The position numbers and the translations under genes are program-made. A stretch of DNA of 64,000 bases from Armatimonadota bacterium (GTDB lineage Bacteria; Armatimonadota; Zipacnadia; Zipacnadales; UBA11051): contig JABLXH010000002.1 in the NCBI GenBank assembly GCA_013178155.1, positions 116,523 through 180,522 on the forward strand. Direction: 5' to 3'. Positions within the stretch are counted from its first letter, which is position 1. Each line of letters opens with the position of its first letter. The notes below the pieces were generated by a model that was not told where the DNA came from, searched no databases, and saw only the letters and a list, made by a program, of their open reading frames with translations. Shown here in pieces: positions 1 through 16,930 of the stretch.

Positions 1-152
1 CTCTTGCACATTGGCATAGAGGGCGGGAGCGCAGCCAAGGTCGGCGCGTTCACTGCCCAGACGCTGGTGGGCCAGGTAAGCGCCCTGGCGCCCGATGGTG
101 GTCAAGTTGTCGGTGATGCCCAGACAAGGCTGGAAACAGACCTTCTTGGACA
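1..152 (-). CDS. DGC-domain-like protein, 5' part (start at 152; gene runs off the window start)
   Basis: Reverse translation gives MSKKVCFQPCLGITDNLTTIGRQGAYLAHQRL..., similar to the N-terminus of the adjacent DGC-domain ORF (GCSGIGRLISTVVRQAVYM). Tandem paralog. Confidence 0.4.
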
Positions 153-167
153 TGGCAGGGCTACCTC

Positions 168-635: not shown

Positions 636-754
636 GTATTATCGCTGCTGCGCAAACAGTGTCAATGCGTATCATTCGGTATAATTCCGCAAGAATGCAG
701 GTCTACTCCGCCGTGCAGGGAAGTCCCTTCCCACGTCACGACAGGAGGCTTGCG

Positions 755-1984: not shown

Positions 1985-1987
1985 AGC

Positions 1988-3079: not shown

Positions 3080-3113
3080 GCGGGAATCTCCGTTGTAGGA
3101 TGGCCGCAAGCGA

Positions 3114-3164
3114 CCTCACCCCCCACCCGCCTTCTTTCTCCTCGGAGGGGGCTAGGGGGTGAGG
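3114..3164. promoter_or_regulatory. 10-bp inverted repeat (CCTCACCCCC ... GGGGGTGAGG, 31-nt spacer) in the divergent GT9/GT9 intergenic region
   Basis: Directly read: 3114-3123 is the reverse complement of 3155-3164. Lies between divergently transcribed genes. Confidence 0.3.
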
Positions 3165-3181
3165 CAAAGGATGACCAGCCC

Positions 3182-4405
3182 ATGAACCTCCACGAACTGC
3201 GCACCGACTGCGTCCACTTCACCGGCTACCGCCCCTGCCACCGCGGCTGTGAGTGCCGCGGCTGCCCGGACTTCACCGCCGCGGGGCCGAACGTGCTCGT
3301 GCTCAAGCTATACCAGTTGGGCAACATCGTCAAGAGCACCCCGGTGTTGCATGCTCTCCGCAAGCTGCACCCTGACTGCCGCATCAGCTGGATGGCCTCG
3401 CCGGCCGGCTGTGAGCTGCTGGCGCACAATCCCTTCATTCACCAGCTACTGACCGACAACACCAACGACCTGCTCTACTGCCAGCAGATCAAATGGGACC
3501 TCATCCTGTCCCTGGAGGCCAACCGCCAGGCCGCGGCCATCGCCACGAGCCTCAAAGCCGACCGCAAGCTGGGCTTCGGCCTGGACGAGCACGGTAAGCT
3601 GTGGCCGCTTGGCCCCGAGTCTGAGGTGCTCTACAGCTTCAACCTCAGCAACGAGTTGCGGTTCCACGTCAACGACAAGACGGTCCATGAGTTGTACTTC
3701 GACCTGCTGGGTGTGCCCTATGAGGGCGAGGAGTATGTCATCTGTCCGTCGGAGGCTGACTACGCCTACGCTGACCACCTCCTGCGATCACTGGGGCTGG
3801 CACCATCCTCGGTAGGCAAGGCTTCCAGCGCCGCCGGTCCAGGCACCGCCGCCGGGGCAGGATGCCCCGGCTACCGGGAGGCCGGCCCGCCCCTCATCGG
3901 CTTCAACACCGGTGGCAACGCGGCGCGCTTTGAGACCAAGCAATGGACCATTGACGGCTTCGTACAGTTGGCGCGGCTGCTGCACCAGCGCCTCGGGGCG
4001 AAGGTGGTGCTGCTGGGCGGCCCGGCCGAAGTGGCCCGCAACGCCGAGATCCTCTCCCGCACCCGCGACTGTGCCGTGGACAGTGGCTGCGACCACGCCA
4101 TCCTGCAGTTCTGTGCCTTCTTGTCGCGGCTGGACTGCGTGGTCAGCGGCGACGCCTTCGGCCTGCAGGCGGCGGTGGCGATGGGCACGCCAACGGTGGG
4201 TATCTTCGGCCCGACGCCGCCGCAGGAAATCGCGATGTTCGGTCGCGGCCGCAAGGTGGTGGCTCCGGTGGACTGCAGCCCCTGCTACATCCGCAACGCC
4301 CGCGACTGCGAGCGCCACGCCGACTGCATGGAGCTCATCTCCGCCGAGGAGGTCTACGCGGCGGTGGAGGAGCTGCTGCGGGAACAGGGAAGGCTGCCGT
4401 TGTAG
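3182..4405 (+). CDS. Glycosyltransferase family 9 (heptosyltransferase-like) with N- and C-terminal Cys clusters
   Basis: LVLKLYQLGNIVKSTPVLHAL GT9 N-terminal motif; GDAFGLQAAVAMGTPTVGIFGPT C-terminal motif. N-terminal C-x8-C-x3-C-x-C-x2-C and C-terminal C-x2-C-x7-C-x5-C. Confidence 0.75.
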   Translation: MNLHELRTDCVHFTGYRPCHRGCECRGCPDFTAAGPNVLVLKLYQLGNIVKSTPVLHALRKLHPDCRISWMASPAGCELLAHNPFIHQLLTDNTNDLLYCQQIKWDLILSLEANRQAAAIATSLKADRKLGFGLDEHGKLWPLGPESEVLYSFNLSNELRFHVNDKTVHELYFDLLGVPYEGEEYVICPSEADYAYADHLLRSLGLAPSSVGKASSAAGPGTAAGAGCPGYREAGPPLIGFNTGGNAARFETKQWTIDGFVQLARLLHQRLGAKVVLLGGPAEVARNAEILSRTRDCAVDSGCDHAILQFCAFLSRLDCVVSGDAFGLQAAVAMGTPTVGIFGPTPPQEIAMFGRGRKVVAPVDCSPCYIRNARDCERHADCMELISAEEVYAAVEELLREQGRLPL

Positions 4406-4528
4406 GGCGGGGGGCCTGTACCCCGCGGTGCCAGCCGGAGCGGCCGGGCCTGCTTGTCCTGCCCAGAGGGCAGACGGCTTGACGGCAGTCGGGGTCTGAA
4501 GACCCCTCCCACGGAAAGGGTGTGCCTC

Positions 4529-5425
4529 ATGTTCATCGACATCCACGTTCACACGCGGTTGTTCCCGGGGCCCGACCGGCTGGGCGGAGGAAACTATGCG
4601 ACGCCGGAAGAGATCGTCGCCATGTTGCAGCCGCACGGGGTGAAGCGCTGCGTCATCCTGCCCGGGGTGAACCCCGAATGCGCCTATGTGCCGCAAAGTG
4701 TCGGCGAAGTCGTGCACATCTGTGAGCAGTACCCCGACTTCTTCATCCCCTTCATGAACGTGGACCCGCGCCAGGTGAGCAACTCGCCCGACGCCGACCT
4801 GGGGCACATCATGCGCTTCTGGAAGGCCCGTGGCTGCCGGGGGATAGGGGAGGTCTGCGCCAACCTGCGCTTTGACGACCCGCTGATGGCAAACCTGTTT
4901 CGCCATGCCGAAGCGGAGGGGCTGCCGCTGATCTTCCACCTCGCGCCGGGGGACTACGGATACTACGGCATCCGCGAGGACCTGGGTCTGCCAGGGCTGG
5001 AGTGGGCCCTGCGCCAGTTCCCGAACCTGACCATCATCGGCCACTCGCAGCCCTTCTGGGCCGAAATCAGCGGCGACCTGACCGAGGAGCTCCGGAATAC
5101 TTACCCCAAGGGCAAGGTGGCGCCCGGTGGGGCGGTGGTGCGGCTTTTCCGCGAGTGTCCGAACCTCTATGGCGACCTGTCTCCGGCGGCGGGCAGCGGC
5201 TTCAACGCCATCGCGCGCGACCCGGAGTTCGGCTATGGCTTCCTGGAAGAGTTCCAGGATCGCCTGCTGTTCGGCACGGACATCTGCGACCCAAGCAACA
5301 AGCTGACCCTGATAGACTGGCTCAATGACGCGGTGGAGCAGGGTAACATCAGTCGGGAGGCGTATGAGAAGGTCTGCTGGCGGAACGCTGCGAGGGTGTT
5401 AGGGATGGAGGGCGAGGCCGTCTGA
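4529..5425 (+). CDS. Amidohydrolase-2 family TIM-barrel metal-dependent hydrolase
   Basis: MFIDIHVHT start (HxH metal motif), ...GHSQPFW..., LFGTDICDP C-terminal Asp. Start moved to the internal ATG at 4529. Confidence 0.7.
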   Translation: MFIDIHVHTRLFPGPDRLGGGNYATPEEIVAMLQPHGVKRCVILPGVNPECAYVPQSVGEVVHICEQYPDFFIPFMNVDPRQVSNSPDADLGHIMRFWKARGCRGIGEVCANLRFDDPLMANLFRHAEAEGLPLIFHLAPGDYGYYGIREDLGLPGLEWALRQFPNLTIIGHSQPFWAEISGDLTEELRNTYPKGKVAPGGAVVRLFRECPNLYGDLSPAAGSGFNAIARDPEFGYGFLEEFQDRLLFGTDICDPSNKLTLIDWLNDAVEQGNISREAYEKVCWRNAARVLGMEGEAV

Positions 5426-5510
5426 GGCGTGGCCTGCCGGAGGGCCCCGCGTGATCCGGTCTGTCCGCACAGTACTGGCGGAGGCAGCACGGGCCTGCAG
5501 GGGGCTTTCG

Positions 5511-7193
5511 CTACCCCTCCGCGTTCATCTCGATGATCGCCTCGGCCATGCGGCGGCGGGCCTCAAGCAGTGCGGCGTCGCTGCGCGTGTAGGTCGAGTG
5601 ACTCGGCAGGAGCTGCTCGCGGATCTCGTCCAGTAGAGCCTGGGCCCTGATGGCAGCGGGGTGGTCGGGGCCCAGGCGGGCGATGCCCTGCTCCACCAGC
5701 CTGAAGTACTCGTAGTCCTCGGTGCCCTTGCGCACCATCTCCCAGCGGATCGAGTTGCAGATCTTCTCCTGCCCCGGATAGACCACGTGCGGGTCGCCGG
5801 GCGGCAGGGGCAAGCGGCCCAGGGGTAGCCGTTCGCTGCCACCGGTGGCGTTGCTCCAGGGGTCAACGGGGCCCTTCGAGCCGCCCCAGGCACTCCAGTG
5901 GGCATAGCCCCAGTGCAGGTAGCCGGTGGCGCCGTAGCGCCAGTTTAGCCAGGGGATGATGCGGGTCTTCAGCGACGAAAAGTCTAGAAAGCGGTTGGGG
6001 TACGGACCCTGGGGGGCCAGACAGGTGTAGGTCCACAGCTCCTCTCCCTCGGGGCGCGGGCCATCGTGCACTTCCTGGATCTGCGGCACGCGGATCTCGA
6101 TGCAGCCCACCAGCCCCTCCGCCATCACCGCATCTACCCGGCGCACGTCCGGCAGTACGCCGCGCACGAAGTCGGCCATGGCGCGGTAACTGGCCTCGTT
6201 GGCCGGTGTCGGTTCATCGGCCTGATGCAGGATGAAGCGGTCCCACCAGCCACGCTCCTGCAGATGGGCCTTCAGGCTGAGGAGAAAGTCGCGCAGCAAG
6301 GCTCGTCGCTGCGGATCGTCCACCGGCGCCGATGGCAAGCGTTCGCTACTGCCATCCTGGTGGTGAACGGTGAGGCCACCGAAGACGAACTCGCTCTCCC
6401 AGTCGCCCGCGCGTCCGCCCAGGTGTCCCCCCTCGATGCAGTCGGCAACCCCGTAGCGATCGAAGGTCTCGATCCACCGGTCGAGATTGGCATAGTCGAA
6501 GGTGTACTCGTCACCCTGACGGCATGTGCGCACCAGTGAGAAGAGCGGCGTAAGGATGGTGTTGTGCCGGTGCTCCCCCATGTTGCGGGCCACCTTCTCC
6601 ACCCATTGCCACCACTCTTCGGAGAAGCGCTCGACCCGGTACCACTCCTCCAGGCAGCCGGTGGAGAACCAGTTGGTGTTCCACATGGAGGTCTTCACCG
6701 GCAGGCTGAAGGGCCAGACCTCCAGGGCCAGCGGTACGGTGATCGTGTGCGTGTCCGCCTTGATGGTGACGTTGCCGGTGTACTCCCCCGGGGCCGCGTC
6801 GGCCGGCACGGCAACGGTTATCCAGACAGGCTGGGTCCGGTTGGGCTGCAGGCGTGTGGTGGGCCACTCGAGAAACGGGTCAGGAAAGAAGTCTGGCGCG
6901 CGCCGGATGATATGCTCTCCGTCGCCGTTGTCCCGGGTGTTCTCGAAGACAGGCACATAGCCCACAAAGTCCGCCGTCAAGCAGTCTGCCGGGATCGTCG
7001 CACCCTCGGGGCCATGCAGCGGCGACAGCTCCACCCGCACCTCATGGACGCCCTGCGAGGAACGGAGGCAGACCTGTACGTCCTCGCGCTCGTTGCGGGC
7101 AGCGGCCAGGCGAATCCGGTAAGTGGCCTCCGCACTGGGACCGTCGTCCTGGAAGACCTTCTTCAGGCTGTCCTCGACCCAATGGATGAGCAT
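5511..7193 (-). CDS. DUF4091 domain glycoside-hydrolase-like protein
   Basis: C-terminal GYLHWGYAHW ... PPGDPHVVYPG ... SIRWEMVRKGTEDYEYFRL matches the DUF4091 signature. Start trimmed to the internal Met (MLIHWVED). Confidence 0.6.
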   Translation of the reverse strand: MLIHWVEDSLKKVFQDDGPSAEATYRIRLAAARNEREDVQVCLRSSQGVHEVRVELSPLHGPEGATIPADCLTADFVGYVPVFENTRDNGDGEHIIRRAPDFFPDPFLEWPTTRLQPNRTQPVWITVAVPADAAPGEYTGNVTIKADTHTITVPLALEVWPFSLPVKTSMWNTNWFSTGCLEEWYRVERFSEEWWQWVEKVARNMGEHRHNTILTPLFSLVRTCRQGDEYTFDYANLDRWIETFDRYGVADCIEGGHLGGRAGDWESEFVFGGLTVHHQDGSSERLPSAPVDDPQRRALLRDFLLSLKAHLQERGWWDRFILHQADEPTPANEASYRAMADFVRGVLPDVRRVDAVMAEGLVGCIEIRVPQIQEVHDGPRPEGEELWTYTCLAPQGPYPNRFLDFSSLKTRIIPWLNWRYGATGYLHWGYAHWSAWGGSKGPVDPWSNATGGSERLPLGRLPLPPGDPHVVYPGQEKICNSIRWEMVRKGTEDYEYFRLVEQGIARLGPDHPAAIRAQALLDEIREQLLPSHSTYTRSDAALLEARRRMAEAIIEMNAEG

Positions 7194-7430
7194 CTGAATC
7201 CTCCGCTGACCGTGGTGGCGACGCCCCCATCTAACACCTCTCAGGCGCAACCGTCAAGCACCGGAGCAGGTCGTGTGGTGGGGCGCAAGGAACGCCGCGG
7301 CGACTCCTCCCAGGTCCTCATCGCTCTCGTCGGCACACCCCAGCTGGGACACGCTCCTCACCGCAGAGCACCAGACAGGACGCAATCCAATGGCGCACAC
7401 CCCCACGGCAGACCGGGGCTCGATGGCCCA

Positions 7431-7459
7431 TCGACAGATGCGGGGGCACAGGTTAGAAT
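7431..7459 (+). promoter_or_regulatory. Sigma70-like promoter TCGACA-N17-TAGAAT
   Basis: Hexamers at 7431-7436 and 7454-7459 with a 17-nt spacer, upstream of the 7556 gene in a 360-bp divergent intergenic region. Confidence 0.4.
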
Positions 7460-7555
7460 GGACCAGAGAGTTTCCCGGAAGACGTGTCGGAGGTAAGCTG
7501 CGGCGCGGACAGGAGGCCTCAAGCAGTGAGGAAGCCGGCGGCACAGAGACGGGCC

Positions 7556-8923
7556 ATGGGATCTGCTGCCTGCGTGCTGGGCTGCCTTCTCTGCGCGGTT
7601 GTTGGGGCTCAGCCCATGCCTGGCATGCCCAATATGACTGCCTCCGACGAGGAGCCGCCGCATCCAACCAGGGCAGACACTGTCCTCATGCTACCGCATG
7701 GGCGCCCGGCGTCCGGGACGGCGTGGATGCCCGATAGCACGCCGGTATACGGCATCTCCCGACAGAGCGGTCCATGGGAGTGGATGTACCACGGCACCGC
7801 CTTCGCGGCATACGACCGGATGAACGGTCCACGCGGCGACCGCGACCTCACTGGGCCCAACTGGGCCATGGCGATGGGGCGGCGCCGCATTGGCTCTGAC
7901 AGCGAGCTGCAACTGCGTGGGATGGTCTCGCTGGATCCTGTAACGGTTGGGGGAGGGGGATATCCGCTCCTGCTCCAGACCGGGGAGAGCTGGCGCGGTC
8001 AGCCGCTCATGGACCATCAGCATCCCCACAACTACGTCAGCGAACTGGCGGCTCAGTACCGGCGGGCAACTGGCCCATCCTCGGTGGCGTCGCTCTACCT
8101 TGGTGTCGTGGGCGAGCCGGCTTTGGGGCCACCTGCGTTCATGCACCGCACCCTCGCTCTCGACGATCCCCTGGCGCCGATCGGACACCACTGGCAGGAC
8201 TCCACCCATATCGCCTACGGTGTAGTTACATTGGGGTACGCCACAAGAACCTGGCAGATCGAGCTGTCCACGTTCAACGGTCGGGAACCGGGTGAGAACC
8301 GCTCTCGCATCGAAAGCCCCGAGTTTGACTCCGCCAGTGCCAGGCTTTCCCACAACCCTTCGCCGGAGTGGGCTCTGCAGGTCTCGCACGGGTATCTGCG
8401 CCGTCCCGAGGCACTCCATCCTGAAGCCGACATCCACCGCACCACGGCCTCCGCTATCTTCAACCGGCGCCTTGACGAGCGTCGCAACTGGCAGAGTGCA
8501 TTCGTCTGGGGACGCAACAGAGTTGCGGGGCATGACTACGACAGCTTCCTGCTGGAGGCGAGTCGCAAGCGAGACGGAGGCTGGAGCCCATACGTGCGCT
8601 TAGAGCAGGTAAGCAAGAGCAGTGAGGAGCTGGTCCTGCCGTCGGGCTTCACAGCTTCGAAGGGGCACCTTGTCCGGCAGTTCACCCTGGGGGCCGTTCG
8701 CGACCTGCCCATAGGGGGCGGGTACCAATGGGGCGTGGGAGGCCAGGTGATACTTAGCACTGTGCCAGACGCCCTGGAACCAGTCTACGGCCACAACCCC
8801 ACTGGCTGGCTCGTCTTCGTGCGTGTGCACCCTCGACAGATGGAGCATCGCCAGCAAGCCCCAACGGCACGGCCAGAAGAGCGCGAGGCCGACGGCCATG
8901 GGGCCCATGGCTCACATCCCTAA
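7556..8923 (+). CDS. Hypothetical exported protein (signal peptide; Met/His-rich N-terminal segment)
   Basis: MGSAACVLGCLLCAVVGAQP signal-like N-terminus, MPGMPNM and HQHPH motifs, W-rich mature region. No family recognised. The ORF track start at 7484 is the alternative. Confidence 0.5.
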   Translation: MGSAACVLGCLLCAVVGAQPMPGMPNMTASDEEPPHPTRADTVLMLPHGRPASGTAWMPDSTPVYGISRQSGPWEWMYHGTAFAAYDRMNGPRGDRDLTGPNWAMAMGRRRIGSDSELQLRGMVSLDPVTVGGGGYPLLLQTGESWRGQPLMDHQHPHNYVSELAAQYRRATGPSSVASLYLGVVGEPALGPPAFMHRTLALDDPLAPIGHHWQDSTHIAYGVVTLGYATRTWQIELSTFNGREPGENRSRIESPEFDSASARLSHNPSPEWALQVSHGYLRRPEALHPEADIHRTTASAIFNRRLDERRNWQSAFVWGRNRVAGHDYDSFLLEASRKRDGGWSPYVRLEQVSKSSEELVLPSGFTASKGHLVRQFTLGAVRDLPIGGGYQWGVGGQVILSTVPDALEPVYGHNPTGWLVFVRVHPRQMEHRQQAPTARPEEREADGHGAHGSHP

Positions 8924-9035
8924 GCGCGGAGAGCCAGAGCGTGTGCCGGTGCTCAAGGGCCATTGGAGGCGCCCCTCGGGACGACGCGACAACCTTGGGA
9001 TCGGTAGGCAGCGGTAGTGTGGGTGCGGCGGAGCC

Positions 9036-9773
9036 TCAGCGCAGGGGCCAGAATACCACCAGGCAGTCCATCGCCGTCGCCACCAGCCAGTGCAAGAGCC
9101 ACGGGCCGACGAAGGACTTGCCTCGCCAGGCCATCACACCCAGGATGACACCTGCGGCAATCGCCGAGAAGCTCTCCAGCTCCAGTTTGGGGAAGTGCGC
9201 CATGGCGAACGGGACCATCTGGATGAAGATGGCGATGGCCCCCAGACGCCGCCCCAGACCGAACAGCAGAAACCCGCGAAAGAAGAACTCCCACGCCAAG
9301 AAGTAGACTAGCCAACCGGCCATAGAAGGGAAGAGAAGCCAGGCGTTGTCTCGCGCCGGACCATAGCGCGGGTAGAAGGCGTGGAAGTCCGGCCGGCGCG
9401 AGGCGATTGCCAGCAGCGGCAGCATCACCAGGAGCAGGACCACGAGCCACCGCCCCCAGATACGCACGTCACCAGCGGCCAAGCCGAACTCGCTAACTCG
9501 TTCGCGGAACACCAGTCGCACCAGCAAGACCGGCCCCAGAAAGAGCGTCACAAAGTTCAGGGCGTGCCAGCCGAACAGAGCATACTGCGCCGGAATGAAG
9601 CCGAGATGCCCGTGGTAGTGCACCACTGCCAGGGCAAGGGCGGCGTAGACAAGTATGACCGCCTCGCGCCAGGGGGCATCCGGCACCCAAGACAGCGCAG
9701 AACAGGGTTGGTGACATGGCGCTGGCGCTGCGGCTGCATTGGCGGGAGGGGCAGGCGGCAACCCGTCGGTCAT
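9036..9773 (-). CDS. CPBP family intramembrane metalloprotease (CAAX protease / Abi)
   Basis: EFFFRGFLL (EExxxR motif) and FAMAHF (FxxxH motif) within a polytopic hydrophobic protein. Confidence 0.7.
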   Translation of the reverse strand: MTDGLPPAPPANAAAAPAPCHQPCSALSWVPDAPWREAVILVYAALALAVVHYHGHLGFIPAQYALFGWHALNFVTLFLGPVLLVRLVFRERVSEFGLAAGDVRIWGRWLVVLLLVMLPLLAIASRRPDFHAFYPRYGPARDNAWLLFPSMAGWLVYFLAWEFFFRGFLLFGLGRRLGAIAIFIQMVPFAMAHFPKLELESFSAIAAGVILGVMAWRGKSFVGPWLLHWLVATAMDCLVVFWPLR

Positions 9774-9855
9774 GGCGTCGTAACTCCGGACGAATCTGCG
9801 CTGCGACAGCGCTGTCCATTGTCCAACCTTGGCCGAGAGCTGTCAACCCGCGGAT

Positions 9856-9868
9856 GTCACCAGGTGAC
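9856..9868. promoter_or_regulatory. Palindrome GTCACC-A-GGTGAC upstream of the P1 promoter
   Basis: Perfect 6+6 inverted repeat, read directly, 19 nt upstream of the -35 hexamer. Confidence 0.25.
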
Positions 9869-9886
9869 TTGCGCAAACTTTGGGGA

Positions 9887-9916
9887 TTGACAAAGTATTA
9901 TTATGGGTAGTACTAT
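9887..9916 (+). promoter_or_regulatory. Near-consensus promoter TTGACA-N18-TACTAT for paralog P1 (AT-rich island)
   Basis: TTGACA 9887-9892, TACTAT 9911-9916, spacer contains TTATTAT. Same architecture as 10623-10652. Confidence 0.5.
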
Positions 9917-9956
9917 CATTAGTAGTTAAATCACTGCCGGAAGGGAGAGCGCCACG

Positions 9957-10586
9957 ATGAAAGCCCTGCACTGGTCCAGCGCCTTAGCCGTCACAATGGT
10001 AGCTTGCCTCACGCCGGTCGGGGCAGATGATGACCGCTCACGTCGGACCATCACCTCGCCCCCTACCGGCAACGTCTCCGGTCTGTCGCCACAGTCTTAC
10101 CTCTACGACCGTGGTCGCGGCCCTGCATACAGCGACCGACCCGGGCATGGCCCTGCGCCAGCCTACCATCCTCCCCACCATGTCTCGCCTCCCGCGAGAG
10201 GGCCGCACTGGAGCCAGCCAGTGTTGCCACCCGGTCTCCACTACTCGCCGACGCGTGGGATCACGCCAGACTTCCTCGGCTCGGTCATCGTGGCCTGCGA
10301 CGACACGTTCCTGGGGGTCGTTGACCGCAAGTACTGGGAGCCTGACTCGATCTGCAATCCCGACGGCCGCTACGGCGACCCACGGTCTCCGTACTCGATC
10401 TGGAATCCGGACGGACGGTGGGGGACCAAGTGGGGGTATGACAGCCCCTGGAACCCCAACGCCACGTGCCCGCCCAAGGTCTACTTCGGCAACTACTTCT
10501 GGGGCTACCTGTCCACCAATCGGTCGCTGCAGCCCCGGATCAACCCTTACTGGTTGGTGGAGCATCTGGAGAAGAAACTGCGCTGA
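9957..10586 (+). CDS. Secreted protein, paralog P1 (signal peptide + Pro/His-rich linker + conserved NPDGRYG-repeat C-terminal domain)
   Basis: GGAAGGGAG RBS 9 nt upstream; signal peptide MKALHWSSALAVTMVACLTPVGA; C-terminal FLGVVD...SICNPDGRYGDPRSPYSIWNPDGRWG...PYWL aligns with the P2 C-terminus. Confidence 0.7.
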   Translation: MKALHWSSALAVTMVACLTPVGADDDRSRRTITSPPTGNVSGLSPQSYLYDRGRGPAYSDRPGHGPAPAYHPPHHVSPPARGPHWSQPVLPPGLHYSPTRGITPDFLGSVIVACDDTFLGVVDRKYWEPDSICNPDGRYGDPRSPYSIWNPDGRWGTKWGYDSPWNPNATCPPKVYFGNYFWGYLSTNRSLQPRINPYWLVEHLEKKLR

Positions 10587-10622
10587 AAGAGGGCGACGAC
10601 TGACAGACGGTGTAGATATGCC

Positions 10623-10652
10623 TTGACAGCTTATTATCTCAAGTAGTACTAT
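10623..10652 (+). promoter_or_regulatory. Near-consensus promoter TTGACA-N18-TACTAT for paralog P2 (AT-rich island)
   Basis: TTGACA 10623-10628, TACTAT 10647-10652, spacer contains TTATTAT. Identical geometry to the P1 promoter. Confidence 0.5.
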
Positions 10653-10710
10653 TCAGAATAGTAAAACAGACGGGAAGACGTGACAGCCCCGCTGAGAAGG
10701 GGTGAGACCG

Positions 10711-12108
10711 ATGAAAACCTGGTGCCGCAGAGTGCTGGTATTGGCGGTGGCGGCCCTGGTACTGGCGCCTGTGCTCGGCGATGGCGGCAACCGCCGTCGC
10801 ACGGTGACCTCACCGCCTCAGAAAGCGAGCAGCGTATCCAAGTCCGAGGCAACGAAGGCGGCGCCCCGCAGCACGACCGAACGTCGCAGTGAGAACAGCC
10901 ATGCGCGGCCCCGGGCAGCTTCACCAGGCCTGTCCGTCCGGACCCATGCGCCGGCGGCGCCGTCCGTGAGCCCTGGGCCCGGTCGTTCCCTGGCTGGTTC
11001 CCGAGCCCCCGCTGGTGTGCAGCGAACAGCCATACCAGGTCAGCAATCCGACCGACGCGGGGTGAGCGTCTCCTCTCGCTCGCCCATGACCCGGCGCTCA
11101 CTATCCCCAACGCCAAGCACCCGTCCGGTCGCGCCGGCCACGTTGACCACGCCACACATTGCCCGGCGCGACGGCAGCCCTCCGACCAGCGACGCCCTGC
11201 GCAGACCCCCGACCACGTCCCGAGGGCCGATGACCCGGCCCAGTCCAAGACCATCGGCGACATCTCCGACCGAGCCGACCTCACGCCCGGCGCCGTCAGT
11301 GAGCCCTCACAACCCGAGTGCCTCTCACGAGGCGACGTTTGGCCGCCCGCCCGGCCCGCCACGGACCGACGTTCGGCCGGGTAGTGGACCAAGCGGAGAC
11401 AGGCACGACGCAGACCGCGGGACTCGCAACCGAAGAGACGGTGACGGTCCCGGTGAACGCCCCGCACACGACCGCGATCCTGGTCAGCCCCACCGCCCGT
11501 CCTTTGACCGCGATGAGCGGCGACCGGATTACCATTGGAGTGACCGGCACGATGGCCTCGGTCGCGATTGCCGCCACCGGCACCGGCCGCACCACCGCGT
11601 TCCTGTCTGCCGGCCCGTGCCGGTACCCGTCTACATCCCGTGGCCGCGGCCTGTCTGGTACCCGCCGCCTCTGCCGGATGTGGTCGTCGTGACCGAGCGC
11701 GTCGAGGTGCCGGTGCCTTACCCGGTGCCAGAGCCAGCGCCTCTGCCCCCGCCCTATGCGCCGCCGCCTCCGCCCGATGGCGACTGGCCTGTCCTTGGGG
11801 CCGAGATCTGGGCCGCTGACGGCACCTTCCTCGGCGTCATCAGCCTCGACACCACGGACCCCCACTCGATCAGTAACCCCGAGGGCCGCTTTGGCCACCC
11901 CGAGTCGCCGGAGAGCATCTGGAACTACGAGGGTCGCTTCGGCAGCCTGGACTACGACCTCAGCCCGTGGTGTGAGACAGCAACACGCCCGCCGCAGCTC
12001 ATCCTGGACGGACGCTTCCGGGGCTATCTGACGGCCAATGAGCACGTGTTCCCCCGGGTTGATCCGTACTGGCTCGGACAGTACCTTGGCCTGATCGCCG
12101 ACAGCTAG
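10711..12108 (+). CDS. Secreted protein, paralog P2 (signal peptide + about 300-aa disordered Ser/Pro/Arg/His/Asp-rich region + conserved NPEGRFG-repeat C-terminal domain)
   Basis: AAGGGGTGA RBS before ATG 10711; signal MKTWCRRVLVLAVAALVLAPVLG; post-signal RRTVTSPP shared with P1 (RRTITSPP); C-terminal FLGVIS...SISNPEGRFGHPESPESIWNYEGRFG...PYWL. Confidence 0.7.
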   Translation: MKTWCRRVLVLAVAALVLAPVLGDGGNRRRTVTSPPQKASSVSKSEATKAAPRSTTERRSENSHARPRAASPGLSVRTHAPAAPSVSPGPGRSLAGSRAPAGVQRTAIPGQQSDRRGVSVSSRSPMTRRSLSPTPSTRPVAPATLTTPHIARRDGSPPTSDALRRPPTTSRGPMTRPSPRPSATSPTEPTSRPAPSVSPHNPSASHEATFGRPPGPPRTDVRPGSGPSGDRHDADRGTRNRRDGDGPGERPAHDRDPGQPHRPSFDRDERRPDYHWSDRHDGLGRDCRHRHRPHHRVPVCRPVPVPVYIPWPRPVWYPPPLPDVVVVTERVEVPVPYPVPEPAPLPPPYAPPPPPDGDWPVLGAEIWAADGTFLGVISLDTTDPHSISNPEGRFGHPESPESIWNYEGRFGSLDYDLSPWCETATRPPQLILDGRFRGYLTANEHVFPRVDPYWLGQYLGLIADS

Positions 12109-12257: not shown

Positions 12258-13415
12258 GTGAGGAATACATTCCTGCCATTCTGTCCGCCCCAGATCGGGG
12301 AAGAGGAGATCGCTGAGGTCGTGGACGCACTGCGCTCGGGGTGGATCACTACGGGCCCGCGGACGCAGCAGTTCGAGACCGACTTCAAGGACTACGTGGG
12401 CGCTCCGGCGGCTCTCGCCGTGAGTTCAGGCACCGCGGCGCTGCACCTGGCCCTGGCAACGCTGCCTGTTGGCCCTGGCGATGAGGTCATCACGACGGCG
12501 CATACCTTCGTTGCCACGGTCAACGCCATCGAGCACACCGGCGCAACTCCCGTCCTGGTGGACGTGGAGCCTGACACCCTGAACATGGACCCGGACCTGG
12601 TCGCTGCGGCTGTGACGCCAAGGACCCGGGCCATCGTGCCGGTGCACTACGCCGGACATCCGGTGGACATGGACCCGCTGTACGCTCTCGCCCAACACCA
12701 CGGCCTGAGCATTGTGGAGGACGCCGCCCATGCGGTCAGTGCCACCTACCGCGACCGGCGCATCGGCGACTGCGACAACCCGGTAGCCTGGAGCTTCTAT
12801 GCCACCAAGAACATGACTACGGCCGAGGGAGGTATGGTAACCGGGCCGCTCGAGTTCATCGAGCGTGCGCGGATTGCCAGCCTGCACGGGATGAGCAAGG
12901 ACGCCTGGAAACGCTTTGGCAAGGGCGGAAGCTGGTACTGGGAAGTTGTCACGGCCGGCTTCAAGTACAACATGCCCGATGTCCTGGCGGCTATTGGCCT
13001 CTGCCAGTTGCGCAAGCTGCAAGGCTTTCAACAGCGCCGCGCCGCGATCGTGGCGGCCTACAACTCGGCTTTCGCGGGCCAGGAGGCACTGGAGTTGCCA
13101 GTGACCCGACCGGACGTCGGCAGCGCCTGGCACCTGTATGTTCTGCGTCTGAACCTCGAGTGCCTCACCATCGGGCGCGACCAGTTCGTGCAAGAGCTCA
13201 TCGCCCGCAACATCGGCGTGTCGGTCCACTGGCCCCCGGTCCACATTCAGCCCTACTATGCGGCCAAGTACGGCTACCAGCCCCTCGACTTCCCGGTCTG
13301 CTATCGCAACTATGAGCGTATGCTGAGCCTGCCACTCCACGCCGGCCTGACCGACCAGGACGTGGCTGACGTGATTGACGCCGTGCGAGACGTCATCAAC
13401 AAGTTCCGGCGCTGA
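12258..13415 (+). CDS. DegT/DnrJ/EryC1/StrS family aminotransferase
   Basis: LPFCPPQIGEEEI...SGW N-terminus, SSGTAALHLAL, GDEVITTAHTF, and the FYATKNMTTAEGG lysine motif. Confidence 0.85.
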   Translation: MRNTFLPFCPPQIGEEEIAEVVDALRSGWITTGPRTQQFETDFKDYVGAPAALAVSSGTAALHLALATLPVGPGDEVITTAHTFVATVNAIEHTGATPVLVDVEPDTLNMDPDLVAAAVTPRTRAIVPVHYAGHPVDMDPLYALAQHHGLSIVEDAAHAVSATYRDRRIGDCDNPVAWSFYATKNMTTAEGGMVTGPLEFIERARIASLHGMSKDAWKRFGKGGSWYWEVVTAGFKYNMPDVLAAIGLCQLRKLQGFQQRRAAIVAAYNSAFAGQEALELPVTRPDVGSAWHLYVLRLNLECLTIGRDQFVQELIARNIGVSVHWPPVHIQPYYAAKYGYQPLDFPVCYRNYERMLSLPLHAGLTDQDVADVIDAVRDVINKFRR

Positions 13416-13450
13416 GAGCTTTCGCTGGGTGCGCCGGGGGAGGGACCACC

Positions 13451-14425
13451 ATGGGGGTCAACCTGAACCTTGGGGGAGTCAGCGTAGGCGCCGGCCGGGG
13501 CATCAGTAGTGGCTGTGGCTCGGTCTTTGGCGTGTTCCTTGGTCTCTTCCTCGTCCCTGCGGCGTTTTACATGGTCTTCTACGGAGAGAAGCGCCTGGTC
13601 AATCACGGGGTGGTCTTTGAGCGGACAGCGCTCACCAGTCCCGAAACCGCTGCCACGCAGAAGGGCGGGCTGGCAAAGGTCAAGGGCAGACCTGCTGGCC
13701 AGTTCGTCGAGGCCCCGCGCTACCCCAAAGCCAAGGTTCTGTACTGGCGCACCAACGTCGAAGAGTACAAAGAGGAGCGCGACTCCGACGGTGAGATCGA
13801 ACGGGACTGGGAGAGCGTGGGCGGCGAGAAGCGGTGGGTACCCTTCACGCTGGGTCCCCTTAAGGTGGATCCGCAGAAGGCCAACCCCGTCGGCGAAGTC
13901 ACGGTCTACAAGGGCTACAAGCCGCGGGGCGCCAGTGAGTTTGACCCGGAACGCTGGGATAGGAGTCCTCAGGTCGGGGATCAGCGCATGACCGTTGAGG
14001 TGCTGCCGACGGACAAAGAATACCTGGTGCTTGGTGAGGTTACCAACGGCGCCATAGCGGGCGGCTCGAGCTTCGTGGTCAGCGCGCTGGACGAGGCCGG
14101 GACAATAGCTGCGCTGAAGCTCGAGTACAAGATCGCGTACTGGCTGATCAAGGGCGGAGCTGTGGTGGCGATGTGGCTTGGCCTCATGGCGATCTTCGGT
14201 CCCCTGATGGCTCTCGTCGGCTGGATTCCCCTCATTGGTGAGCGCCTCACCGGCCTGGTGGCCCTGGGCGCTCTGGCCTTCTCCGTGGTCACCGTGGCGC
14301 TCCTGACCCTGCTGTTCAAGCTCTTTTGGCTCATCGCCCTGGTGGGGGGACTGGCGATCGCTGTTCTCATCGTCCGCGGTATCACCACGCCAAGGCATCG
14401 GCCAGGGACGGCACCCGCGTCCTGA
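13451..14425 (+). CDS. TMEM43-like (DUF1625) membrane protein
   Basis: One N-terminal TM, about 190-aa soluble loop, three C-terminal TMs. Topology and length match the TMEM43 family; by-eye call. Confidence 0.45.
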   Translation: MGVNLNLGGVSVGAGRGISSGCGSVFGVFLGLFLVPAAFYMVFYGEKRLVNHGVVFERTALTSPETAATQKGGLAKVKGRPAGQFVEAPRYPKAKVLYWRTNVEEYKEERDSDGEIERDWESVGGEKRWVPFTLGPLKVDPQKANPVGEVTVYKGYKPRGASEFDPERWDRSPQVGDQRMTVEVLPTDKEYLVLGEVTNGAIAGGSSFVVSALDEAGTIAALKLEYKIAYWLIKGGAVVAMWLGLMAIFGPLMALVGWIPLIGERLTGLVALGALAFSVVTVALLTLLFKLFWLIALVGGLAIAVLIVRGITTPRHRPGTAPAS

Positions 14426-14647
14426 TTGGCCGGCTGCGGCTCGTCGTTCCCACGCGCCAGCGCAGGCTTGAGCGACCGCTGAGAACACCAGCGGTTCGCC
14501 AGCCTGGCACTTCCCATTCTTAAGGGCGTCTTGAGACGTCGGTCGGCTGTTCTTGATGGGGCGTACATAAGATAGCCTTGGGGGACGCACCAGTTCGCCA
14601 TGATGATCCATCGCACCAGCGTCTGGACGCCGTAAGGGGAACACACC

Positions 14648-16930
14648 ATGCCAGATAACTCATCATGGAGCCGTGAAGGGGCGCGCCTGCTGGTTCAAGA
14701 GCACCGCATCAGGCTCGTGGTAGTGGTGGTCCTGGCCACCTTTGTGGTGCTCGCCCGGCACTCACTTACCCATCCCTACGCTGCCCAGTTGTCAGTCCTG
14801 CTGATGCTCGGCGCGCTCCTCCTGGCGCGGTTCGGCGTACGCGAGGGACGAAGGAGCAGGTGGCGTCTGGGGTTCCACTTTGGGGCTGTCGCCCTGGCGG
14901 TCCTCGACCTGGCCGCCGTCACCTCTCTGCTGGTGGGAACGGGTGGGGCTGACAGCGGTTTCTTCTCCCTCTATCTGATCAGCCTAATCTTTGCCGCGAT
15001 CTTCTTCCACGGTCTCGAACTCGCCCTGCTAACCGCACTGGCTGCCGCGCTCTACGTTGGCGTGTCATGGAATACCCTCATCACGCCGGAGCAGATCTGG
15101 CACTCCATCGCTCGGCTTGTCGGACTGGGTGTAGTCTCCTGGTACGCCTATGCGCTCTCGGACGTGATCCGGCGCGAGCAGGAGGCCAGAGACCAGCTCC
15201 TGCGGCACCTCACCGAGGGGGTGCTCGTGTTCGACCGCGAGGAGCACCTGGTCCTGGTCAATGGGCCCATGTTGCGTCTCCTGCCTGGAAGGACCGAAGA
15301 GAGCCTGATTGGCACCGACCGGGCATCACTTGCGGCCGTCGGTGGATTCCTTGGGTGGCTGGTAGCCGACGTCGCCAGCGGGGCAGCAGCAAGCGACAGC
15401 TCCACGCGCGTCGGCTCCTTCCCCGAGGCAGGCCTGCCTCTTGTGGAGTGCGTGACTATCGCCTGCCGTGGTGACCGCAAGCAAGACGGTTGGGTGGTGG
15501 TGTGCAAGGATCTCCAGTCACAGACCGTTGAGACCCGTTCGCCCCGCAATCAGACCATCGAGAAGCTCTCGCCGCTGTCCAACCTCCGCGCCCTGACGCA
15601 GTCGCTGTATAGCATGGCGGGCTATATCGAGGAGCCCAAGCGGGCGCAGGCCATCGAGGCCATACAGCGCCACACCAAGGCCTTGCAGGGCGTCCTTGCC
15701 AATATGCTCCACGACTCCTATGAGGCTCCCGCCGAGGGCGGCAACCTGGATCTGACCTTTGTGGAAGTGCCCAGTCTCCTGCAGGGCATGCGCCGCCTGC
15801 TCCAGATTGCCCAGGGACCCCGTGAGGTGCCCGTAGACGTCATCATGTCCGAGCAGTTGCCGAACCTGAGTGTGGATCGAGCTGCTGTCAGTCAGTCGCT
15901 GCTGCACTTGTCCAAGGGGCTGGTGGCACTGGCCGGACATGACGATCGCCTGGTGATAGACGTACGGACCGTGGACGACTACGTTCGCTTTGCGCTCCAG
16001 CTCACCAGCGACAATGAACCGCTGGAGAGCGACATGGACGGGCAAGCCATGTCGGGCGCCGAGGCGGCCGAGGCCTTTGAAGGGACCGAGGCCTTCCGGA
16101 TCATCGAGGACCATGGCGGCCGCTGGGAGTGTGTCCCTCAGAATGGGCGCGTGCGCCGCGTAGTGGTTGAGCTGCCAATCGAGGGTCCGCCGAAGACGCA
16201 CCAGGTCGATCCCGCCGAGCAAGCGGCCACGCACCGTGAACTGTCGGAGATCGCTGCTACCAGTCTTCAACTGAACCCGGTACTGGCGGCGGAGGTCTCC
16301 AACCAACTGAAGAACTCGCTGAACGTCATCCGGGGCTACGCCGAGATGGCGCTGAAGAGCCAAAGCGAGGAACGTCGTGAGCGGGCCTTGGAGTTGGCTG
16401 TCAGTCTCAGCGACCAGGCCGCTGAGCTTGTTGATTCTCTGCAGCCGTCCGGTGGTCACTTCCCGCACGAGGAGGCTGCGGAGAGCACCCGTGAGAGACT
16501 TGCGGCGACCGCGCCGGAGAAAGCCGCGGTCGCAGCCGCAGGCACGATCCTGGTCGTGGACGACGACCCCTTCATGCGACAACTGCTGATCGATACACTG
16601 GAGGATGCCGGCTACACCACTGCCGGGGCCGATGACGGCATAAAGGCCCTGGACTACATCCGAAGCACCCCTCCCGCCATCCTGTTTGTGGACCTGTCCA
16701 TGCCAGGCCTGAGTGGGGTGGATGTGATGCGCGAGGTCCGGCAAAGAGTGCCCGACCTGCCGGTCGTCCTCATGACAGGCTACACCTACAACCTGGCCAT
16801 GCAGGCGCTCGGCGAGGAGAAGCCCTATGCCGTCATCGGCAAGCCCTTCTCCATCAACGAGGTGCTGGCCATCGTCAATGAGCTAGTCGGATCTCGCCAA
16901 CCCGCGGCCCGGAGCAAGACACCAGCCTGA
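14648..16930 (+). CDS. Membrane sensor with degenerate histidine-kinase core and intact C-terminal response-regulator receiver domain
   Basis: 4-5 N-terminal TMs. HisKA-like helices without His (SPLSNLRALTQSL; NQLKNSLNVIRGYAEMAL). Partial HATPase_c (FRIIEDHGGRWECVP). REC domain with ILVVDDDPFMR, FVDLSMPGLSG and GKP. Confidence 0.7.
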   Translation: MPDNSSWSREGARLLVQEHRIRLVVVVVLATFVVLARHSLTHPYAAQLSVLLMLGALLLARFGVREGRRSRWRLGFHFGAVALAVLDLAAVTSLLVGTGGADSGFFSLYLISLIFAAIFFHGLELALLTALAAALYVGVSWNTLITPEQIWHSIARLVGLGVVSWYAYALSDVIRREQEARDQLLRHLTEGVLVFDREEHLVLVNGPMLRLLPGRTEESLIGTDRASLAAVGGFLGWLVADVASGAAASDSSTRVGSFPEAGLPLVECVTIACRGDRKQDGWVVVCKDLQSQTVETRSPRNQTIEKLSPLSNLRALTQSLYSMAGYIEEPKRAQAIEAIQRHTKALQGVLANMLHDSYEAPAEGGNLDLTFVEVPSLLQGMRRLLQIAQGPREVPVDVIMSEQLPNLSVDRAAVSQSLLHLSKGLVALAGHDDRLVIDVRTVDDYVRFALQLTSDNEPLESDMDGQAMSGAEAAEAFEGTEAFRIIEDHGGRWECVPQNGRVRRVVVELPIEGPPKTHQVDPAEQAATHRELSEIAATSLQLNPVLAAEVSNQLKNSLNVIRGYAEMALKSQSEERRERALELAVSLSDQAAELVDSLQPSGGHFPHEEAAESTRERLAATAPEKAAVAAAGTILVVDDDPFMRQLLIDTLEDAGYTTAGADDGIKALDYIRSTPPAILFVDLSMPGLSGVDVMREVRQRVPDLPVVLMTGYTYNLAMQALGEEKPYAVIGKPFSINEVLAIVNELVGSRQPAARSKTPA

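What the first reader, a model, noticed from the sequence alone, without database searches (positions are those of the whole stretch)
9957..12108. Tandem paralogous secreted proteins with a novel C-terminal domain carrying tandem NP[DE]GR[YFW]G motifs and a conserved post-signal RRT[IV]TSPP motif
P1 (209 aa) and P2 (466 aa) align over about 100 C-terminal residues, which I cannot match to a named domain: FLGV(V/I)..(D/T)..(P/S)(D/H)SI(C/S)NP(D/E)GR(Y/F)G(D/H)P(R/E)SP(Y/E)SIWN(P/Y)(D/E)GR(W/F)G...SPW...AT.PP....GYL(S/T).N....PR(I/V)(N/D)PYWL. Both have signal peptides and the same RRT(I/V)TSPP heptapeptide right after the predicted cleavage region, a possible processing or sorting tag. P2 additionally carries an about 300-aa low-complexity region rich in Ser/Pro/Thr/Arg, then His/Asp/Arg (DRHDADRGTRNRRDGDGPGERPAHDRD...HRHRPHHR), then Pro/Val/Tyr (PVPVPVYIPWPRPVWYPPPLP), features of extracellular matrix, metal-binding or intrinsically disordered adhesive proteins. 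The genes sit beside a CPBP intramembrane protease gene (9036-9773), a family often paired with secreted peptide or protein substrates.
Basis: seen in the sequence. Interest (0 to 1): 0.65.

Follow-up and report, generated by a model that had tools for sequence, protein, structure and literature searches.

The report
Uncatalogued exported-protein domain, two old paralogs
Two neighbouring genes of an Armatimonadota bacterium encode exported proteins, each a floppy spacer followed by a compact 105-residue end domain that matches no curated protein family or solved structure, although thousands of unnamed relatives exist in environmental bacteria; its function is unknown.

Summary
P1 (9957-10586, 209 aa) and P2 (10711-12108, 465 aa) share a C-terminal domain (49% identity over 100 aa, E=3e-27). 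Both begin with a signal-peptide-like N-terminus followed by RRT[IV]TSPP.

AlphaFold2 models the domain confidently (pLDDT 92.6). It has two beta-hairpins and a helix around about 50 residues with no DSSP-assigned structure. P1 residues 21-102 are predicted disordered.

P1 and P2 are old paralogs, not a recent duplicate. Each has its own TTGACA-N18-TACTAT promoter-like site overlapped by an inverted repeat, TACTA-N4/7-TAGTA. The repeat precedes all 13 clade genes examined.

The CPBP link is weak, since adjacency holds only in close relatives. RRT[IV]TSPP is a subclade motif with no evidence of function. My best reading is a regulated, exported, non-enzymatic binding or anchoring module on a disordered tether.

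The parts
9036..9773 (-). CPBP/Rce1-like intramembrane protease gene, transcribed divergently from P1. It is a neighbour; a functional link is not established.
   Evidence: PF02517 at E=4.9e-10, 40 bits. The best NCBIfam hit is NF040590 (MrtA) at 88.5 bits, far below its cut-off of 200. The adjacency is kept only in L001 and L009.
9887..9924 (+). P1 promoter-like site: TTGACA (9887-9892), 18-nt spacer, TACTAT (9911-9916). It is overlapped by the inverted repeat TACTA-TCAT-TAGTA (9911-9924) and the palindrome TAGTACTA (9908-9915).
   Evidence: The inverted-repeat pattern has 2 matches in 64 kb against 0.01 expected.
9957..10586 (+). P1 coding sequence, 209 aa plus stop.
   Evidence: pN/pS 0.11.
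9957..10025 (+). P1 signal-peptide-like N-terminus (aa 1-23, ...TPVGA|DDD).
   Evidence: Read from the sequence. AF2 models a helix at aa 5-17. No SignalP was run.
10041..10064 (+). RRTITSPP motif of P1 (aa 29-36).
   Evidence: It lies in a region with pLDDT below 50.
10026..10262 (+). P1 Pro/Ser/Arg/Gly/His-rich spacer, predicted disordered (about aa 24-102).
   Evidence: pLDDT is below 50 for aa 21-65, 68-90 and 92-102. Composition.
10269..10571 (+). P1 C-terminal domain (about aa 105-205). It includes NPDGRYG (from nt 10356) and NPDGRWG (from nt 10404).
   Evidence: (pLDDT 92.6, pTM 0.85).
10623..10663 (+). P2 promoter-like site: TTGACA (10623-10628), 18-nt spacer, TACTAT (10647-10652). It is overlapped by the inverted repeat TACTA-TTCAGAA-TAGTA (10647-10663).
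10711..12108 (+). P2 coding sequence, 465 aa from ATG 10711. The ORF opens at GTG 10702.
10711..10779 (+). P2 signal-peptide-like N-terminus (aa 1-23, ...APVLG|DGG).
   Evidence: Read from the sequence.
10795..10818 (+). RRTVTSPP motif of P2.
10780..11781 (+). P2 low-complexity spacer in three compositional blocks: P/S/R/T-rich, then R/D/G/H-rich, then P/V-rich.
   Evidence: Constraint is weak (pN 0.035, pS 0.064).
11782..12105 (+). P2 C-terminal domain (about aa 358-465). It includes NPEGRFG (from nt 11875) and NYEGRFG (from nt 11923).
   Evidence: (pN 0.004, pS 0.050).

Best explanation
P1 and P2 are two old paralogs of a large, uncatalogued family of mostly exported bacterial proteins.

Proposed sequence of events:
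1. Each gene is transcribed from its own sigma-70-like promoter. The -10/+1 region is overlapped by a conserved inverted repeat (TACTA-N4/7-TAGTA), most simply an operator for an unidentified regulator. The two genes, and their homologs in related Armatimonadota, would then be co-regulated.
2. The products are exported through Sec and the signal peptide is removed.
3. Each mature protein is a long, fast-evolving, disordered, Pro-rich and net-basic spacer carrying a compact domain of about 105 residues at the extreme C-terminus.
4. That domain has an N-terminal beta-hairpin, three stacked or packed 16-residue Ser/Asn/Gly/aromatic units, then a second beta-hairpin and a short helix. It has no conserved constellation of catalytic-type residues (no invariant His, Cys, Glu or Lys; D19 is the only near-invariant charged residue). 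I infer that it is a non-enzymatic binding or self-association module, anchoring the protein to an envelope or extracellular component, possibly a glycan, with the spacer acting as a tether or matrix-forming segment.

Shown here: paralogy, coding status, size and distribution of the family, absence from curated libraries, the confident fold prediction, the predicted disorder of the spacer, and the conserved upstream element. Inferred: export, operator function, and the binding or anchoring role with its ligand.
For: - Paralogy: E=3e-27.
- Purifying selection is strongest on the domain.
- No hit in Pfam, NCBIfam, PHROGs or PADLOC, either for P1 and P2 or for 10 distant members.
- No PDB sequence hit, tested with two profiles.
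- Family size: 3,289 representatives at E<=1e-3, 1,708 at <=1e-10 and 26 at <=1e-30. All names given by sources are 'hypothetical protein', and no precomputed Pfam domains exist for these proteins.
- AF2 domain model: pLDDT 92.6, pTM 0.85. Strands at 14-16, 22-25, 78-81 and 84-89, helix at 101-108. Residues 26-77 have no DSSP-assigned structure, yet pLDDT is 96-98. The domain is recovered again at pLDDT 92 or above from an independent 34-sequence alignment of full-length clade proteins.
- Column conservation shows the threefold 16-residue unit. Near-invariant residues are G, S, N, P, one Asp (D19, 92%) and hydrophobic or aromatic residues. No His, Cys, Glu or Lys is conserved.
- Of 290 sampled members, 234 have a hydrophobic signal-like N-terminus. 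The domain ends within 8 residues of the C-terminus in 127 of the 176 whose match reaches the C-terminal end of the domain profile.
- All 27 aligned Armatimonadota-type relatives have the layout signal peptide, variable spacer, domain.
- Upstream element: 2 matches in the 64-kb window, both directly upstream of P1 and P2, against 0.01 expected. It also lies upstream of the family gene in L001 (two genes), L002, L003, L008, L009 (two genes), L010, L011, L012 and L013, and is absent from four loci of other phyla.
Against: - No experiment or ligand supports the binding role. Function rests on architecture and on the absence of catalytic-type conservation.
- Export was judged by eye and by a crude hydrophobicity rule, not by SignalP.
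- 46 of the 290 sampled members lack a signal-like N-terminus. These include tandem-domain, apparently cytoplasmic forms, so the domain is not intrinsically extracellular.
'Stacked units' is inferred from sequence periodicity together with confident, DSSP-unassigned structure.
- The AlphaFold-database fold libraries were unavailable, so an existing unnamed structural cluster cannot be excluded.
- The inverted repeat overlaps the -10 hexamer, so part of its conservation may simply be promoter conservation.
Confidence: 0.5

Rival explanations
1. P1 and P2 are substrates of the neighbouring CPBP intramembrane protease. After export, the protease cleaves or otherwise processes them at the conserved post-signal R-R-T-[IV]-T-S-P-P motif, which acts as a processing or sorting tag.
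For: - The CPBP gene is divergent from P1, 183 bp away. The arrangement is kept in L001 and L009.
- The motif is identical in position in P1 and P2 and recurs loosely in P0002, P0012 and P0009.
- The best NCBIfam hit of the CPBP protein is a sorting-type enzyme, MrtA, at 88.5 bits.
Against: - The three loci with the adjacency are close relatives and do not count as independent.
- No CPBP gene was called next to the family gene in L002, L003, L008, L010 or L012, or in three loci from other phyla.
- P0009 has the motif but no CPBP gene within 6 kb.
- The MrtA score is far below its cut-off of 200.
- P1 and P2 lack the C-terminal Cys/transmembrane/Arg signal that myxosortase-type enzymes recognise.
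- Most clade members lack the motif.
Confidence: 0.12
2. The functional part is the low-complexity region. P2 in particular would be a metal-binding, mineral-binding or adhesive matrix protein by virtue of its His/Asp/Arg and Pro/Val/Tyr blocks, with the C-terminal domain merely a folding or export aid.
For: - P2 aa 226-295 is 23% R, 19% D and 11% H, and aa 296-358 is 40% P and 22% V.
- Relatives also carry charged RD-rich or Gly/Ser/Gln-rich spacers.
Against: - The spacer is the least constrained region.
- It varies from about 20 to more than 300 residues, with unrelated composition among homologs.
- Many family members are just a signal peptide plus the domain.
- The conserved, selected element is the domain.
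Confidence: 0.1
3. The family acts in inter-bacterial or phage conflict, for example as small secreted effectors or immunity-like binders. P1 and P2 would be the Armatimonadota versions.
For: - The Psychroserpens member lies beside SNase, DUF4407, type I restriction-modification and GmrSD genes.
- Another member lies near HEPN_AbiV and transposase genes.
- Some members are fused to the beta-flower domain PF21784, itself uncharacterised (PMC10584680).
Against: - No PADLOC or PHROG hit, and no phage or plasmid copies by tblastn.
- Armatimonadota loci show stable housekeeping-type synteny (DegT aminotransferase, TMEM43-like protein, PilS-like kinase), not island-like context.
- The contexts of distant members are heterogeneous.
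Confidence: 0.08

Closest known systems
Pfam/NCBIfam domains of unknown function in secreted bacterial proteins (the generic 'DUF' class)
   Same: A compact, conserved domain of about 105 residues, widespread in bacteria, mostly behind signal peptides or lipoprotein signals, with no known function.
   Different: No existing model detects it. P1, P2 and 10 distant members gave no family-level hit in Pfam-A (2025) or NCBIfam release 20 at E<=1. It would be a new entry rather than a member of an existing one.
Small repeat-built (solenoid-like or ladder) binding domains with Asn/Ser/Gly/aromatic periodicity
   Same: Three consecutive 16-residue units with invariant Ser, Asn and Gly positions and regularly spaced aromatic residues. 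The region is modelled confidently but has no DSSP helix or strand. This resemblance is recalled from general knowledge and is a lead, not a test.
CPBP (Rce1/Abi, PF02517) proteases with dedicated substrates, e.g. myxosortase MrtX/MrtA with MYXO-CTERM proteins
   Same: A CPBP gene sits next to genes for exported proteins that carry a short conserved motif. The CPBP protein's best NCBIfam hit is MrtA.
   Different: - The score is below the family cut-off (88.5 against 200).
- The motif is N-terminal and not followed by a transmembrane helix.
- There is no C-terminal sorting signal.
- The adjacency is not conserved beyond close relatives.
Cell-surface proteins built as signal peptide, disordered Pro-rich spacer and terminal anchoring or binding domain (e.g. 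LysM-, SLH- or SH3b-anchored proteins)
   Same: The overall layout and the contrast between a fast-evolving spacer and a conserved terminal globular module.
   Different: The terminal module is unrelated in sequence and predicted fold to those anchors. Its ligand is unknown and anchoring is inferred, not shown.

Membership tests
Any curated protein family (Pfam-A, NCBIfam, PHROGs, PADLOC) | A profile-HMM match of the C-terminal domain at or near the family threshold | tested here: not met
   P1 and P2 gave 0 families at E<=1 in Pfam and NCBIfam. Ten distant members gave none covering the domain. PHROGs and PADLOC gave none.
Any protein of solved structure | Sequence-profile or fold similarity to a PDB chain | tested here: not met
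The unnamed family defined here (profile A2) | A full-length match to the roughly 110-position profile, including D-G-T-F-L-G, three S-I/P-x-N units, P-P, G-Y-L-T-x-N and P-R-I-D-P | tested here: met
   P1 and P2 are both in the seed and align end to end with members from other phyla. 3,289 representatives match at E<=1e-3.
Sec-exported proteins | An N-terminal signal peptide with a basic n-region, a hydrophobic h-region and a small-x-small cleavage site | tested here: inconclusive
   The layout is visible in both proteins: MK-ALHWSSALAVTMVACLTPV-GA|D and MKTWCRR-VLVLAVAALVLAPV-LG|D. A hydrophobicity rule flags 234 of 290 family members. No dedicated predictor was available.
CPBP / Rce1-like intramembrane proteases (PF02517), for the neighbour gene | A Pfam match above the gathering score, plus the E-x-x-x-R and F-x-x-x-H motifs | tested here: met
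   40 bits against a cut-off of 22.4. WEFFFR and FAMAH are readable in the translation.
Myxosortase-type CPBP sorting systems (MrtA/MrtX with substrates) | An enzyme scoring above the NCBIfam cut-off, and substrates with a C-terminal Cys-containing signal, a transmembrane helix and a basic tail | tested here: not met
   NF040590 scored 88.5 bits against a cut-off of 200. P1 and P2 end in the soluble domain (...HLEKKLR...YLGLIADS) with no C-terminal hydrophobic helix.
   Present in the window, L001 and L009 only. Absent in L002, L003, L008, L010, L012 and L004-L006. The sample is small and several contigs are short.
Tat-exported proteins | A twin-arginine motif in the n-region, before the hydrophobic core | tested here: not met
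   The RR of RRT[IV]TSPP lies after the hydrophobic segment and the predicted cleavage site, and no hydrophobic stretch follows it.

The most novel reading that the evidence does not exclude
The C-terminal module is a genuinely new protein fold: a beta-hairpin-capped stack of three 16-residue Ser/Asn/Gly/aromatic units. It would define a new superfamily of several thousand exported bacterial proteins with a new ligand-binding function at the cell envelope. In Armatimonadota its members would form a small regulon controlled through a previously undescribed TACTA-N4/7-TAGTA operator.
Probability: 0.3. Interest if true: 0.65.

Novelty: categorically new. Interest (0 to 1): 0.5.

Why it matters
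If the fold prediction and the lack of relatives hold, this is a large, phylogenetically broad family of exported proteins that current annotation misses entirely. I found 3,289 cluster representatives at 50% identity, in Armatimonadota, Bacteroidota, Verrucomicrobiota and many metagenome bins. Every member seen is labelled "hypothetical protein".

Defining the family would improve annotation. It would also correct gene calls: P2 is split into three bogus genes in a public assembly, and P0020 is truncated.

The domain is small, soluble and confidently modelled, so it is a tractable target for structure determination and ligand screening.

The conserved upstream palindrome offers an experimental handle on regulation in Armatimonadota, a phylum with almost no characterised transcription factors or operators.

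The claim is limited. It concerns an uncharacterised domain family, not a demonstrated new biological mechanism. AlphaFold-database-derived resources may already hold it as an unnamed cluster.

Tried and rejected
- **Curated libraries.** Pfam, NCBIfam, PHROGs and PADLOC scans of P1, P2 and distant members found nothing for the domain.
- **PDB by sequence.** Two profiles found nothing significant.
- **Phages and plasmids.** tblastn of family member P0052 found no match in either collection.
- **Rfam.** The P1 and P2 upstream regions gave only a sub-threshold chance hit. The upstream element is therefore not a known RNA family.
- **Metagenome scan for other genes behind the operator.** Most hits were in AT-rich contigs, none lay next to a family gene, and the GC-rich hits looked like chance or simple repeats. 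It was uninformative about a regulon.
- **Genome-contig scan.** The peptide patterns recovered only one locus, an Armatimonadia MAG, so taxonomic breadth rests on source names.
- **Literature.** Nothing was found on Armatimonadetes with CPBP, or on the assembly accession. The beta-flower paper shows that this fusion partner is itself uncharacterised.
- **Considered and rejected.**
  - Tat signal: the RR lies after the hydrophobic core.
  - Lipoprotein: the P1 Cys in MVAC is not kept in P0002.
  - Myxosortase substrate: there is no C-terminal signal.
  - Spurious ORF in GC-rich DNA: frame-specific purifying selection argues against it.
  - Recent tandem duplication: the tree argues against it.
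Full report
**1. Observation**

The window holds P1 at 9957..10586 (+), 209 aa, and an ORF at 10702..12108 (+) for P2. The P1 and P2 upstream regions align and share the start context CGATGAAA. The likely P2 start is therefore ATG 10711, giving 465 aa.

BLASTP of P1 against P2 gives 49% identity and 65% positives over 100 C-terminal residues, E=3e-27. A six-frame regex scan finds RRTITSPP and RRTVTSPP, and the four NP[DE]GR[YFW]G-type motifs, only in these two ORFs in the 64-kb window.

The compositional blocks of P2 are as described: P/S/R/T-rich, then R/D/G/H-rich, then P/V-rich. The neighbour at 9036..9773 (-) is a CPBP/Rce1-like protein, PF02517 at E=4.9e-10.

**2. Are these real genes?**

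A locus 96% identical in P1 exists in NCBI assembly GCA_900174595.1 (L001), with the same gene order. The P1 cluster includes a protein labelled Armatimonadetes/Armatimonadota bacterium. A further homolog lies on an Armatimonadia MAG contig.

Between the window and L001, pN/pS is 0.11 for P1 and 0.43 for P2 in the annotated frame. It is above 1.4 in the other two frames. Within P2 the domain is strongly constrained (pN 0.004, pS 0.050) and the spacer weakly (pN 0.035, pS 0.064).

The P2 ORF is intact in L001 at 468 aa. The public gene call there replaces it with three short genes, one of them antisense. Both ORFs are therefore coding over their whole length.

**3. What is the domain?**

- **No curated match.** Pfam-A and NCBIfam give no hit at E<=1 for P1 or P2.
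- **Word-indexed search.** It found only six relatives.
- **Exhaustive HMMER search.** A profile of the eight domains found 3,289 cluster representatives at E<=1e-3, 1,708 at <=1e-10 and 26 at <=1e-30.
- **Distant members.** Ten of them again hit nothing in Pfam or NCBIfam over the domain, nor in PHROGs or PADLOC.
- **Second search.** A 96-sequence profile returned 269 proteins. None has a precomputed Pfam domain, and every name given by a source is 'hypothetical protein'. The named sources include Psychroserpens sp. Hel_I_66, a Spartobacteria MAG and Armatimonadota MAGs.

Column statistics of the 96-sequence alignment give this consensus:

L-x-G-A-x-I-V-A-x-D-G-T-F-L-G-x-I-S-x-N-x-Y-D-x-D-[S-I-x-N-x-Y-G-x-Y-G-S-x-Y-S-x-x]-[S-I-F-N-x-Y-G-x-Y-G-S-x-Y-S-x-x]-[S-P-W-N-x-Y-A-x-x-P-P]-K-I-F-x-G-x-F-x-G-Y-L-T-x-N-x-x-L-x-P-R-I-D-P-x-x-L-x-x-W-L

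The invariant or near-invariant positions are Gly, Ser, Asn, Pro, one Asp (D19, 92%) and hydrophobic or aromatic residues. No His, Cys, Glu or Lys is conserved, so the usual catalytic residue sets are absent.

**4. Structure**

AlphaFold2 on the 96-sequence alignment gives mean pLDDT 92.6 and pTM 0.85. It models two short strands (14-16, 22-25), about 50 residues (26-77) with no DSSP-assigned helix or strand but pLDDT 96-98, then a beta-hairpin (78-81, 84-89) and a helix (101-108).

An independent run on full-length P1, with 34 clade sequences, reproduces the domain at pLDDT 92 or above. It leaves residues 21-102 below 50, which covers the spacer and the RRTITSPP motif.

Two caveats apply. The AFDB libraries were not available, and I could not inspect coordinates. 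'New fold' is therefore supported against solved structures only, and the stacked-unit description is an inference from the periodicity.

**5. Family architecture**

Among 290 sampled members, 234 have a signal-like hydrophobic N-terminus. In 127 of the 176 whose match reaches the C-terminal end of the domain profile, it ends within 8 residues of the protein's C-terminus. Forms seen:

- Signal or lipoprotein signal plus the domain, about 110-150 aa.
- Signal, long variable spacer, then the domain. This is the Armatimonadota type and includes P1 and P2.
- Repeats of the first two-thirds of the domain.
- Tandem-domain proteins with no signal.
- Rare fusions to a trypsin-like/TSP3 region or to the beta-flower domain PF21784. 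That domain is itself a recently named, uncharacterised fold (PMC10584680).

No copies were found in phage or plasmid collections.

**6. P1 versus P2**

In a neighbour-joining tree of clade domains, P2 pairs with P0010 (63% identity). P0010 also has a Pro/Val-rich pre-domain segment. P1 groups with P0001, P0008 and P0002, then with P0003 and P0012. P1 and P2 are 43-49% identical. They are old paralogs.

P2, P0010 and P0003 each sit directly upstream of a DegT-family aminotransferase gene. More distant relatives have one copy per locus, as far as the contigs show.

**7.

Both genes are preceded by TTGACA-N18-TACTAT. The region holds 4 promoter-like sites against 0.3 expected. The 30-nt pattern TTGACA-N3-TATTAT-N5-GTAGTACTAT occurs only at these two places in the window, with none in 100 shuffles.

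The -10 hexamer is the left arm of an inverted repeat, TACTA-N4/7-TAGTA. That pattern has 2 matches in 64 kb, both here, against 0.01 expected. The same holds for TAGTACTA.

The repeat lies upstream of every clade gene examined: L001 (two genes), L002, L003 (two adjacent copies), L008, L009 (two genes), L010, L011, L012 and L013. It is usually the only match in loci of up to 12.7 kb, and it is absent from the four loci of other phyla. Where a start codon could be placed, the repeat ends 32-125 nt upstream of it. That variation ties the element to the promoter rather than to the ribosome-binding site. No Rfam family matches.

The simplest reading is an operator overlapping -10/+1. Part of the conservation may simply be the promoter itself.

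**8. The CPBP idea and the RRT[IV]TSPP motif**

The divergent CPBP neighbour recurs in L001 and L009, which are close relatives. It is absent from:

- L002, where the upstream gene is a LysE-family transporter.
- L003.
- L008.
- L010.
- L012.
- Three loci from other phyla.

The motif is loosely conserved in a subclade: P0002 has RKSRTITSPP, P0012 has GRRGITSPP, P0009 has RRRTATTPP, and L010 has QRRGHPGAAPP. It is absent from most other clade members. P0009 has the motif and no CPBP gene within 6 kb.

The CPBP protein's best NCBIfam hit is the archaeomyxosortase MrtA, but at 88.5 bits against a cut-off of 200. P1 and P2 also lack any C-terminal sorting signal. The link is therefore possible but unsupported. 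The sample is small and several contigs are short, so it is not excluded either.

**9. Mechanism, with its status**

- *Shown:* paralogy, coding status and selection pattern, family size and breadth, absence from curated libraries and from solved structures, a confident and compact domain model, a spacer predicted to be disordered, and the conserved upstream palindrome.
- *Inferred:* Sec export. The domain acting as a non-enzymatic binding or self-association module, based on its terminal position, on conservation that looks structural rather than catalytic (Gly, Ser, Asn, Pro, one Asp and aromatic residues), and on its aromatic/polar repeat surface. The spacer as a tether. The palindrome as an operator.
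- *Ligand:* a glycan or envelope ligand is a guess. It is prompted by neighbouring sugar-related genes (GH123, DegT, glycosyltransferase 9), which may be coincidental.

**10. Verdict**

The finding is better described as the local representatives of a big, unnamed, mostly exported protein family with a predicted fold that has no solved relative.

It is of moderate interest. It is worth a family definition and a structure, but no surprising mechanism has been demonstrated. The CPBP and sorting-tag ideas and the metal or adhesion ideas remain speculation.

Noticed in passing
window 9887-9924 and 10623-10663; also L001 7955 and 8691, L002 4710, L003 2607 and 2625, L008 2549, L009 3646 and 4382, L010 1231, L011 656, L012 5909, L013 920: A conserved inverted repeat, TACTA-N4/7-TAGTA, overlaps a TTGACA-N18-TACTAT promoter-like site upstream of every Armatimonadota-clade gene of this family. 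It is unique in the 64-kb window (0.01 expected). It is a candidate operator for an unknown regulator.
   Followed up: partly
L001 8746-10152 (GCA_900174595.1, FWPV01000029.1): The public gene call splits the intact 468-aa P2 ortholog into three short genes, one of them antisense. Similarly, P0020 in L010 is a truncated call. The real ORF starts at L010 1373 with a signal peptide.
   Followed up: yes
window 7484-8923 (+): A 479-aa ORF between the GH123 gene and the CPBP gene. It has a hydrophobic N-terminal segment and His-rich patches (HQHPH, HHWQDSTH). It has no hit in Pfam, NCBIfam or PDB by sequence. It is conserved in L001, called there as 465 aa.
   Followed up: partly
window 12258-16930; L001 10302-14974; L002 5813-10478: A gene string of DegT-family aminotransferase, TMEM43-like membrane protein, and a PilS-like 6TM histidine kinase with a receiver domain lies directly downstream of the family gene. 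It is conserved in a relative with only about 61% domain identity.
   Followed up: no
L009 3690-4652: The P1-like gene contains an assembly gap (a run of N) exactly where the RRT[IV]TSPP motif would be. The following P2-like gene, behind its own operator at 4382, appears to hit a stop after about 20 codons near the contig end. This may be an assembly error or a pseudogene.
   Followed up: no
L004 (Psychroserpens sp. Hel_I_66, JUGU01000001.1) 1-10420: A 139-aa signal-bearing family member overlaps by 8 nt the end of another small unknown gene. It sits between SNase and DUF4407 genes and a type I restriction-modification plus GmrSD block, an island-like context unlike that in Armatimonadota.
   Followed up: no
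proteins P0121, P0131, P0149, P0064; P0016-P0028; P0115: Other architectures of the domain: N-terminal beta-flower (PF21784) fusions, signal-less tandem-domain proteins of about 250 aa with an N-terminal helix, and a trypsin-like plus thrombospondin-type-3-repeat protein ending in the domain.
   Followed up: partly
C-termini of clade proteins (alignment A4): Many clade members end in an aromatic or basic residue right after the domain (...PRW...NIW...DLW...PRR...KLR). A conserved extreme C-terminus of this kind could matter for recognition or targeting.
   Followed up: no
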